DNA of 5,684 nucleotides from a virus (taxonomy: Duplodnaviria; Heunggongvirae; Uroviricota; Caudoviricetes), in the IMG/VR virus record IMGVR_UViG_2698536552_000009. One strand, given 5' to 3'. Position numbers and translations under genes: made by a program. How positions within the stretch are numbered: the stretch's first letter is position 1; each line of letters opens with the position of its first letter. The notes under the pieces were generated by a model. That model had not been told where the DNA came from, searched no databases, and saw nothing but the letters and a program-made list of their open reading frames with translations. Below are positions 4,569 through 4,646 of the stretch, piece after piece.

Positions 4569-4646
4569 TCAATTCTTATTTACCGTATTACCTACCCAGC
4601 AACCAACAAATAACCCTAAAGTCATCCAGAGAATAACGAGTGTCAT
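4569..4646 (-). CDS. Micro-ORF, 25 aa (MTLVILWMTLGLFVGCWVGNTVNKN); predicted single-pass hydrophobic membrane peptide; below the size cutoff of the ORF track
   Basis: ATG at 4646-4644 shares its A with the TAA stop (4648-4646) of the upstream 101-aa gene (TAATG overlap); SD GAGGTGA lies 4-5 nt upstream inside the end of that gene; stop TGA 4571-4569. The first 19 residues are almost entirely hydrophobic, followed by a polar tail. Confidence 0.4.
   Translation of the reverse strand: MTLVILWMTLGLFVGCWVGNTVNKN

What the first reader, a model, noticed from the sequence alone, without database searches (positions are those of the whole stretch)
4569..4646. 25-aa hydrophobic micro-ORF translationally coupled to the 101-aa gene, absent from the ORF track
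MTLVILWMTLGLFVGCWVGNTVNKN has a 19-residue apolar stretch followed by a short polar tail, its own SD (GAGGTGA) and a TAATG stop/start overlap with the preceding gene. It looks like a deliberately co-translated single-pass membrane peptide. Such micropeptides in phage accessory cassettes can act as membrane-targeting toxins, lysis or superinfection-exclusion factors, or partners of the upstream protein; the function here is unknown.
Basis: partly seen in the sequence, partly recalled or inferred. Interest (0 to 1): 0.5.

Follow-up and report, generated by a model that had tools for sequence, protein, structure and literature searches.

The report
Conserved unannotated 25-residue membrane peptide gene
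The 25-codon reading frame is a real, evolutionarily maintained gene for a tiny membrane-spanning peptide, missed by annotation, in a mobile element found in about 9% of complete E. coli genomes; what the peptide does is still unknown.

Summary
Window 4646..4569 (-) encodes MTLVILWMTLGLFVGCWVGNTVNKN. Its ATG overlaps the TAA of the 101-aa gene (TAATG), and GAGGTG lies 5 nt upstream.

Comparative data show it is a gene. In 34 related loci (25 distinct alleles, 22 peptides) it is always 25 codons, with no stop or indel, although 50 of 72 internal sites vary among the first 20 alleles. pN/pS is 0.38, against 0.34 for the neighbouring gene; other frames give 0.8-1.4. Column permutations almost never reproduce this.

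Three further sequence types (21, 22 and 25 aa) occupy the same slot in related elements. All four share:
- a start/stop overlap with the upstream gene;
- a hydrophobic helix of about 18 residues with a small-xxx-small motif;
- a basic residue near the C-terminus;
- a strong promoter 20-35 nt downstream.

The upstream partner is a tandem ribbon-helix-helix protein. Partner and peptide type swap independently, so a dedicated complex is unlikely.

The peptide has no Pfam, NCBIfam or PHROG match and no RefSeq annotation. Ten variants are absent from a 15-billion-protein collection.

My reading: a single-pass inner-membrane micro-protein of a satellite-like element, probably acting on phage lysis or DNA entry. 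That role is inferred. It is a new family of a known kind.

The parts
4569..4646 (-). Micro-ORF, 25 codons plus TGA: MTLVILWMTLGLFVGCWVGNTVNKN. Predicted single transmembrane helix (residues ~1-19) with G11xxxG15xxxG19 and a short polar tail holding one Lys.
   Evidence: sequence; frame conservation, pN/pS 0.38, permutation tests; hydrophobicity.
4652..4657 (-). Shine-Dalgarno-like GAGGTG, 5 nt upstream of the micro-ORF ATG, inside the last codons of the 101-aa gene.
   Evidence: Equivalent purine-rich runs (GAGGG, AAGGTGG, GAGGA, AAGGGA) occur at the same distance in the other upstream-gene contexts.
4646..4951 (-). Upstream 101-aa gene whose TAA (4648-4646) overlaps the micro-ORF ATG. Predicted tandem (single-chain) ribbon-helix-helix DNA-binding protein.
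4516..4544 (-). Context: near-consensus sigma-70 promoter (TTGACA, 17 nt, TG-n-GATGAT; CATAAT in most relatives), starting 24 nt after the micro-ORF stop. It marks the end of the operon that holds the micro-ORF.
   Evidence: Conserved in all related loci.
4541..4568 (-). Context: three direct TGTT(A/G)N repeats at exact 11-nt spacing (4568, 4557, 4546). They begin immediately after the micro-ORF stop and run into the -35 hexamer. Possible operator array (inference).
   Evidence: same spacing in L084, L082 and L004; two repeats in type-C locus L091.
4171..4509 (-). Context: ~340-nt structured leader between the promoter and the next gene. It holds hairpin P1 (4507-4491), invariant box GGTGCAATGCTTTTCG (4443-4428), hairpin P2 (4423-4394) and a 90-nt hairpin (4287-4198).
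   Evidence: no Rfam family; 8 of 16 predicted pairs show compensatory changes.

Best explanation
The micro-ORF is a genuine protein-coding gene, and it is the last cistron of the element's rightward operon.

How it is made (inferred): ribosomes finishing the upstream gene re-initiate at the overlapping ATG (TAATG or ATGA), helped by an SD inside the upstream gene's last codons.

What it makes (inferred): a peptide of 21-25 residues that is little more than one transmembrane helix. The likely topology is N-terminus out and C-terminus in, because the only basic residue lies within the last three residues. The helix carries a small-xxx-small (GxxxG) packing face, so it most likely works inside the inner membrane by helix-helix association, either with itself or with a host or helper-phage membrane protein.

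Probable role (inferred): at least four sequence types are swapped independently of the upstream gene, inside a satellite-like element that carries tail genes. I therefore think an envelope-level phage-interference or phage-exploitation function is most likely, such as changing lysis timing or blocking or assisting DNA entry.

My sub-probabilities:
- real translated gene: ~0.9
- membrane-inserted helix, given translation: ~0.85
- phage-related envelope role: ~0.4
For: Shown by computation:
- All 34 loci with this type have exactly 25 codons and no stop or indel, giving 25 distinct alleles and 22 peptides. Among the first 20 alleles, 50 of 72 internal sites vary.
- pN/pS is 0.39 in frame, against 0.81 and 1.41 in the other two frames, which carry stops in every allele. 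In the same 20 haplotypes it is 0.38, against 0.34 for the annotated neighbour.
- In column permutations, 25 of 5000 are stop-free, 0 of 5000 reach the observed pN/pS, and 1 of 5000 reaches the observed hydrophobicity.
- The stop is kept as TGA or TAA. The overlap is kept as TAATG, or becomes ATGA when the upstream TAA mutates to CAA.
- The same slot holds non-alignable hydrophobic ORFs: MELVIICFVLIGMIAGASIKV, MIVQLTVVVTCIVLGFWLGGLMIKR and MTLIILWVLLGIVLSFAISMER.
- All four types have negative dGapp, a Kyte-Doolittle 17-residue mean above 1.9, a small-xxx-small motif and a terminal K or R.
- M1, L3, W7, L10, G11, G15 and C16 are invariant in type A.
- Type A is found in 286 and type B in 198 of 5426 complete E. 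coli genomes. Together that roughly equals the 478 genomes carrying the adjacent promoter region.
- Upstream proteins that are 96% identical carry type A in one locus and type B in another.

Precedents from the literature:
- The lidI genes of PLE satellites were previously unannotated transmembrane-domain ORFs in PLEs 1-3; the paper links them to accelerated lysis (PMC7182436).
- HK97 gp15 is a small inner-membrane exclusion protein encoded next to the tape-measure gene (PMC3594210).
Against: - There is no direct evidence of translation, membrane insertion or any phenotype.
- The helix is short (about 18 residues). No dedicated predictor such as DeepTMHMM was available, and the Hessa scale values were entered from memory.
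- One lineage (C. freundii, L005-7) has a 12-nt deletion that replaces the ATG with ATT, so the gene is dispensable or weakly expressed there.
- The element has no lysis genes of its own, and no helper phage is known.
- The phage-related role rests on context and analogy only.
- The alleles are partly recombinant, so substitutions are not fully independent.
Confidence: 0.7

Rival explanations
1. Type I-toxin-like or pore-forming peptide. The peptide oligomerises through its glycine zipper and depolarises or permeabilises the inner membrane. It would act as a kill, abortive-infection or lysis-trigger factor, kept harmless by tight control of its expression.
For: Its size, hydrophobicity and GxxxGxxxG motif resemble small membrane toxins. 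It lies in a mobile element. A promoter-like site exists on the opposite strand at 4445-4472 and points towards the ORF.
Against: - No hit to any toxin family in Pfam or NCBIfam, even at E<=10.
- It has no promoter or long structured 5' UTR of its own. Instead it has a good SD and is coupled to an upstream gene.
- The antisense promoter-like site scores only 9 of 12 and lies where relatives differ by indels.
- No site complementary to the conserved leader box was found in the element.
Confidence: 0.12
2. Dedicated partner of the upstream ribbon-helix-helix protein. The peptide tethers or sequesters the regulator at the membrane, and coupling ensures matched stoichiometry.
For: A start/stop overlap is typical of subunits of one complex. 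In every non-Citrobacter locus examined, the immediately upstream gene belongs to the same ~100-aa family.
Against: - Upstream proteins 96% identical (L082 and L084) pair with non-homologous peptide types B and A.
- In Citrobacter a 74-aa gene sits between the two, and the peptide gene is then coupled to that gene instead.
- The tandem RHH fold spans residues 5-94, leaving about 7 residues for any interaction.
- The peptide's cytoplasmic tail is only 3-6 residues.
Confidence: 0.08
3. Function in cis only. What matters is that ribosomes translate up to the promoter region, for example to prevent Rho-dependent polarity or to keep mRNA structure open. The peptide itself would be irrelevant.
For: The ORF ends 24 nt before the -35 hexamer and directly abuts a conserved repeat array. 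Its length is nearly constant at 21-25 codons.
Against: Selection acts on the encoded amino acids: pN/pS is 0.38, hydrophobicity is retained (1 of 5000 permutations), and W7, G11, G15 and C16 are invariant. Four unrelated sequences at this slot are all hydrophobic helices with a basic C-terminus. A purely cis role would not require that.
Confidence: 0.05
4. Lipoprotein precursor. Residues 1-15 form a signal peptide with a lipobox (L/F-V/I/C-G-C16), and the mature product is a 10-residue lipopeptide, CWVGNTVNKN.
For: G15-C16 is invariant in type A, and residues 13-16 read LVGC, LIGC, LCGC or FVGC, close to the lipobox consensus.
Against: There is no positively charged n-region, and some variants have D2 or E2. 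Type D has no Cys at all. Types B and C have a Cys in a non-lipobox context (VIIC, VVTC).
Confidence: 0.03
5. Not a gene. The open frame would be a by-product of conserved regulatory DNA upstream of the promoter.
For: The adjacent promoter and leader are strongly conserved, in 478 E. coli genomes.
Against: The ORF is more variable (mean pairwise difference 0.235) than the promoter (0.153), yet it never acquires a stop or an indel. Variation is highest at third codon positions (20 of 24 sites, against 13 of 24 at second positions). Among the 25 distinct alleles, none of the three reverse-strand frames is open in all of them; the best has stops in 3 of 25.
Confidence: 0.02

Closest known systems
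Small (<50 aa) single-pass inner-membrane proteins of enterobacteria found by comparative genomics and tagging (e.g. KdpF, CydX, AcrZ, MgtR, PmrR; named from my own knowledge of the field)
   Same: Length class; essentially one hydrophobic helix with a short charged end; routinely missed by gene callers; often the terminal cistron of an operon; act through helix-helix contacts with a larger membrane protein.
   Different: No sequence similarity to any of them (no Pfam or NCBIfam hit). It is encoded on a mobile, satellite-like element rather than in a core operon with an obvious membrane-protein partner. It exists as at least four interchangeable sequence types.
LidI of Vibrio cholerae PLE satellites (PMC7182436)
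   Same: A transmembrane-domain ORF with no detectable homologues. The lidI genes of PLEs 1-3 were previously unannotated ORFs recognised through synteny between elements. The paper links lidI to the accelerated lysis seen in PLE-positive cells.
   Different: LidI is 66 or 121 aa, against 21-25 aa here. No homology is known. The helper phage and any lysis phenotype are unknown for this element.
HK97 gp15 (YebO-like) superinfection-exclusion protein (PMC3594210)
   Same: A small inner-membrane protein encoded near a tape-measure gene. It is postulated to interfere with the incoming phage tail forming a DNA channel through the inner membrane.
   Different: gp15 is described as a moron, a class defined in that paper as independent transcription units. 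This ORF has no promoter of its own and is translationally coupled to the upstream gene. There is no YebO or other Pfam hit, and it is much shorter.
Type I toxins (Ibs, ShoB, TisB, Ldr, Hok; from my own knowledge)
   Same: Hydrophobic peptides of about 18-50 aa that insert into the inner membrane.
   Different: No antisense RNA partner was detected, there is no independent promoter or leader, and there is no family match.

Membership tests
Small single-pass membrane proteins (<50 aa) of bacteria (general class) | Short ORF whose reading frame is maintained by purifying selection across relatives | tested here: met
   25 distinct alleles, no stop or indel, pN/pS 0.38, permutation tests.
Small single-pass membrane proteins (<50 aa) of bacteria (general class) | One hydrophobic segment long enough to span the membrane | tested here: met
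   Kyte-Doolittle 17-19-residue means of 1.9-2.8 and negative summed dGapp in all four types. No dedicated TM predictor was available.
Small single-pass membrane proteins (<50 aa) of bacteria (general class) | Demonstrated translation and membrane localisation | not testable with these tools
   Needs ribosome profiling or epitope tagging plus fractionation.
Type I toxin-antitoxin | Antisense or overlapping sRNA antitoxin with a conserved promoter | tested here: not met
   The only opposite-strand promoter-like site (4445-4472, 9 of 12 matches) lies in a stretch with indels among relatives. No Rfam hit.
Type I toxin-antitoxin | Membership of a described toxin family (Hok, Ldr, Ibs, TisB, ShoB and others) | tested here: not met
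   No Pfam or NCBIfam hit at E<=10 for five variants.
Type I toxin-antitoxin | Toxicity on expression | not testable with these tools
   Requires an induction experiment.
Holin / pinholin | Adjacent endolysin or other lysis genes, and a charged C-terminal domain | tested here: not met
   No family hit points to an endolysin in the element: the only 'endolysin' PHROG match is a weak secondary hit on the Dit-like protein, whose best match is an unknown-function family at 1.7e-129. The C-terminal tail is 3-6 residues with one basic residue.
HK97 gp15 / YebO family | Sequence similarity to YebO-family proteins | tested here: not met
   No Pfam hit of any kind.
HK97 gp15 / YebO family | Independent transcription unit (moron) | tested here: not met
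   The start overlaps the upstream stop in every locus. No promoter-like site lies between the genes.
Bacterial lipoprotein | Lipobox [LVI][ASTVI][GAS]C preceded by a positively charged n-region, conserved across the family | tested here: not met
   Type A has a lipobox-like xxGC but no basic n-region. Types B-D lack a lipobox, and type D lacks Cys.
Type II toxin-antitoxin (RHH antitoxin + downstream toxin) | Antitoxin with a C-terminal toxin-binding extension, and a folded toxin of about 90-130 aa | tested here: not met
   The tandem RHH fold covers residues 5-94 of 101. The downstream product is 21-25 aa.
LidI (PLE satellites) | Sequence homology to LidI | not tested
Lengths differ (66 or 121 aa against 21-25 aa; PMC7182436).

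The most novel reading that the evidence does not exclude
The 21-25-residue glycine-zipper peptides would form a modular, rapidly exchanged family of membrane effectors. They would belong to a so-far uncharacterised family of satellite-like elements that carry a tape-measure and a distal-tail gene. The peptides would act at the inner-membrane DNA-entry channel formed by a tape-measure protein. If they exclude competing or helper phages, they would be the smallest known superinfection-exclusion factors. Alternatively, they might assist entry of the element's own DNA.
Probability: 0.1. Interest if true: 0.7.

Novelty: new member of a known kind. Interest (0 to 1): 0.42.

Why it matters
This shows a concrete blind spot of annotation. 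A gene present in roughly 9% of complete E. coli genomes (about 480 of 5426) is missing from RefSeq annotation and from a 15-billion-protein collection only because it is shorter than 30 codons.

The peptide also marks a conserved functional slot. It lies between the regulatory operon and the promoter of the tail-gene module, in an element family that itself looks uncharacterised. Four interchangeable peptide types at one slot suggest selection from a variable target.

A function in lysis timing or DNA entry would give a minimal, easily mutated model for helix-helix-mediated phage interference. If no phenotype is found, it remains one more small hydrophobic ORF of unknown role.

Tried and rejected
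- Phage GenBank records: no match by megablast or blastn with the region, or by tblastn with the 101-aa protein or the peptide.
- GTDB representative genomes: the protein-based scan found nothing. The 18-mer DNA scan gave mostly chance hits in AT-rich genomes and only two relevant loci, L035 and L043.
- Family searches for the peptide: Pfam, NCBIfam and PHROGs gave nothing. The search for homologous proteins refuses queries under 40 aa.
- Defence-system models (PADLOC): nothing for the cassette or its neighbours.
- First AF2 model of the 101-aa protein: poor (pLDDT 66), and Foldseek against PDB was not significant. It was superseded by a model from a more diverse alignment.
- Profile search of the 101-aa family against PDB sequences: nothing.
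- Frameshift fusion of the peptide to the 101-aa protein: rejected. There is no slippery sequence, and the ATG and SD are invariant.
- Co-variation of peptide type with the element's second small membrane protein (58-62 aa, divergently transcribed): none found.
- Pairing target for the invariant leader box inside the element: none found.
- Literature searches for the element (satellite, tape measure, serine recombinase, yecE): no description found. The Tai tail-assembly-inhibition paper (PMC11364771) was opened at abstract and outline level only and offered no evident link.

Full report
**1. The observation**

On the minus strand, the ORF at 4646..4569 reads ATG ACA CTC ... AAT TGA and encodes MTLVILWMTLGLFVGCWVGNTVNKN. 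The 101-aa ORF (4951..4646) ends GAG GTG ATG TAA. Its TAA (4648-4646) shares one base with the ATG (TAATG). GAGGTG lies at 4657-4652, 5 nt upstream of the ATG. Residues 1-19 are apolar: the Kyte-Doolittle 19-residue mean is 1.95, and the summed Hessa dGapp is -1.26 kcal/mol (scale values entered from memory).

On its own this is not significant, because the window holds 62 ORFs of at least 20 aa.

**2. Where the window comes from**

Stretches of the window are masked with N. Even so, a tape-measure gene is clear: 935..3106 (-) matches PF20155 and phrog_4036.

The 101-aa protein has 32 homologues at 73-94% identity, all named 'hypothetical'. They come from E. coli, Shigella, E. albertii and Citrobacter. 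The region matches 478 of 5426 complete E. coli genomes and no GenBank phage record.

Annotated copies show an integrative element of about 11.5 kb, inserted in the DUF72 gene next to yecN and yecD, or next to wrbA. It contains:
- a large serine recombinase;
- Dam methylase;
- an O/DnaD-like replication initiator;
- HNH/AP2 genes;
- several small genes;
- the 101-aa (or 107-aa) gene;
- a long non-coding stretch;
- a 236-aa gene that PGAP calls 'transposase', although it has no family hit;
- a ~70-aa gene;
- the tape-measure gene and a Dit-like gene.

No capsid, portal, terminase or lysis genes were seen. The element therefore looks like a satellite or a defective prophage. Two literature searches found no description of it.

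**3. Is the micro-ORF a gene?**

Related loci came from metagenomes, IMG/VR, NCBI assemblies and RefSeq.

- In all 25 loci where the 101-aa gene is followed directly by the ORF, it has exactly 25 codons, giving 13 distinct peptides.
- Adding loci with other upstream genes gives 34 loci, 25 distinct alleles and 22 peptides.
- Among the first 20 alleles, 50 of 72 internal sites vary, with no indel and no stop. Third codon positions vary most (20 of 24 sites, against 13 of 24 at second positions).
- pN/pS is 0.39 in frame. It is 0.81 and 1.41 in the other two frames, both of which carry stops in every allele.
- Among the 25 alleles, no reverse-strand frame is open in all of them.
- I ran a permutation that keeps the window allele, the mutation spectrum and the phylogenetic column patterns. 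Only 25 of 5000 permutations were stop-free, none of 5000 reached the observed pN/pS, and 1 of 5000 reached the observed hydrophobicity.
- In the same 20 haplotypes, the annotated 101-aa gene has pN/pS 0.34 and the micro-ORF 0.38. The ORF is more divergent at nucleotide level (0.235) than the promoter that follows it (0.153).
- The stop is TGA or TAA. Where the upstream TAA has become CAA, the upstream gene gains one codon and ends at TGA, giving an ATGA overlap.

**4. The slot is conserved beyond the sequence**

The same 25-aa family follows other genes, each time with a TAATG overlap and an SD-like purine run:
- a distantly related 107-aa gene ending ..DSVRVH or ..DSKVVH;
- in Citrobacter, a 74-aa gene inserted between the 101-aa gene and the ORF.

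Other element relatives hold a non-alignable ORF at the same place:
- type B, 21 aa, MELVIICFVLIGMIAGASIKV;
- type C, 25 aa, MIVQLTVVVTCIVLGFWLGGLMIKR, behind homologue P0033 with an ATGA overlap;
- type D, 22 aa, MTLIILWVLLGIVLSFAISMER, behind homologue P0037 with an ATGA overlap.

All four types share these features:
- negative dGapp;
- a small-xxx-small motif (GxxxG, or GxxxS in type D);
- a K or R within the last three residues;
- a TTGACA-type promoter 20-35 nt downstream.

Type A occurs in 286 complete E. coli genomes and type B in 198. Together this roughly equals the 478 genomes that carry the promoter region. Type C occurs in one complete E. coli genome and type D in none.

In type A, M1, L3, W7, L10, G11, G15 and C16 are invariant.

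There is one exception. The C. freundii allele (L005-7) has a 12-nt deletion between GTAAT repeats. It changes TAATG to TAATT, leaving only an ATT at the start position.

**5. Annotation status**

No CDS is annotated at this position in any of the 10 RefSeq loci inspected. Ten peptide variants are absent from the 15-billion-protein collection. There is no Pfam, NCBIfam or PHROG hit and no tblastn hit in phage records.

**6. The upstream partner**

It is unlikely to be a dedicated partner of the peptide:
- The upstream proteins of L082 and L084 are 96% identical, yet they are followed by type B and type A peptides respectively.
- In Citrobacter another gene sits between the two.
- The fold leaves only about 7 free residues.

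**7. Operon context**

Divergent promoter-like sites lie about 1 kb upstream, at L001 5091-5141. This suggests a rightward operon of 96-aa, 71-aa and 101-aa genes plus the micro-ORF. By position this resembles the early operon of a lambdoid phage, which ends just before the late promoter.

Directly after the micro-ORF stop come three TGTT(A/G)N repeats at 11-nt spacing that run into the -35 hexamer. They are followed by a near-consensus extended -10 promoter and a ~340-nt leader. The leader has covarying hairpins, an invariant 16-nt box and, in most relatives, a terminator-like GCCCTAA..TTAGGGC followed by a T-run. No Rfam family matches it.

**8. Mechanism**

Shown by computation:
- the ORF is under purifying selection as a coding sequence;
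- hydrophobicity and the small-xxx-small motif are the conserved properties;
- the start/stop overlap and the SD are conserved in every context;
- peptide types are exchanged independently of the upstream gene.

Inferred:
- translation occurs by termination-reinitiation;
- the peptide inserts as a single N-out/C-in helix;
- it acts by helix packing, with itself or with a host or phage membrane protein;
- its role lies at the envelope stage of a phage cycle, either lysis timing (like LidI of PLE satellites, PMC7182436) or DNA entry and exclusion (like HK97 gp15, PMC3594210).

The diversification into interchangeable types fits a variable target but does not prove one.

**9. Rivals**

- Type I-toxin-like: no antisense partner, no promoter of its own and no family hit.
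- Dedicated partner of the RHH protein: argued against.
- Cis-only translation: does not explain selection on the amino acids.
- Lipoprotein: the lipobox-like xxGC is confined to type A, and there is no basic n-region.
- Non-coding conservation: refuted.

**10. Verdict**

This is a real, unannotated micro-protein gene. It founds a new family within the known class of small single-pass membrane proteins, on an apparently uncharacterised satellite-like element. Its function is unknown, and the most likely class of function is stated above with modest confidence.

Interest is moderate. Missed small hydrophobic genes are an expected category, but the prevalence, the four-type modularity and the unusual host element make it a reasonable experimental target.

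Noticed in passing
window 4544-4171 (-): A near-consensus sigma-70 promoter is followed by a ~340-nt structured leader before the next gene. In one search, most of the 478 matching E. coli genomes match this promoter/leader stretch rather than the 101-aa gene. It holds covarying hairpins (P1 4507-4491, P2 4423-4394), an invariant box GGTGCAATGCTTTTCG (4443-4428) and a 90-nt hairpin (4287-4198). Most relatives also have a terminator-like GCCCTAA..TTAGGGC plus T-run. No Rfam family matches. It resembles lambda pR'/tR'-type or P4 CI-type RNA-level control of a late operon.
   Followed up: partly
window 4568-4541 (-); L084 7040-7110; L004 6610-6680; L091 3370-3440: Three direct TGTT(A/G)N repeats at exactly 11-nt spacing start right after the micro-ORF stop and overlap the -35 hexamer. 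The phasing is conserved in types A and B, and two repeats are present in type C. They are a candidate operator array for the adjacent ribbon-helix-helix protein.
   Followed up: partly
whole window; L001, L082-L084 (complete copies): The host element is an integrative island of about 11.5 kb. It has a large serine recombinase, Dam, a replication initiator, HNH/AP2 genes, a tape-measure gene (about 30% identity to Felix O1-like myovirus tape-measure proteins) and a Dit-like gene. It has no head, packaging or lysis genes. It occurs in about 9% of complete E. coli genomes, inserted in the DUF72 gene next to yecN/yecD or beside wrbA. No description was found in two literature searches. It is possibly an uncharacterised satellite family.
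   Followed up: partly
window 3205-4218 (-); L001 6848-7558: The 337-aa ORF in the window is probably two genes (about 236 aa and about 70 aa) joined by N-masking. Its C-terminus matches the separate 69-72-aa protein of relatives. PGAP names the 236-aa protein 'transposase', but it has no Pfam, NCBIfam, PHROG, PADLOC or PDB-sequence hit.
   Followed up: partly
L084 4674-4862 (-), L083 4869-5057 (-), L008 4808-4996 (-): The element encodes a second small membrane protein of 58-62 aa, with a glycine-rich transmembrane segment GGG(V/I)GL(I/V)AGLLL. It is transcribed leftward from the divergent promoter region. L008 has a non-homologous 62-aa transmembrane protein at the same place. It shows no co-variation with the micro-ORF type.
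   Followed up: partly
L001 5960-5981 and the leader region of L002, L008, L012, L016, L027: A CCCTAA-N-TTAGGG hairpin occurs about 90 nt upstream of the 101-aa gene. In several loci it also occurs in the leader downstream of the micro-ORF, so there the two-gene cassette is bracketed by similar inverted repeats.
   Followed up: no
L004 6325-6549, L005 6322-6546, L029: Citrobacter-type copies carry an extra 74-aa gene (MKVQIDEVIKKFDFEK...) between the 101-aa gene and the micro-ORF. In C. freundii a 12-nt deletion between GTAAT repeats removes the micro-ORF's ATG and leaves TAATT.
   Followed up: yes
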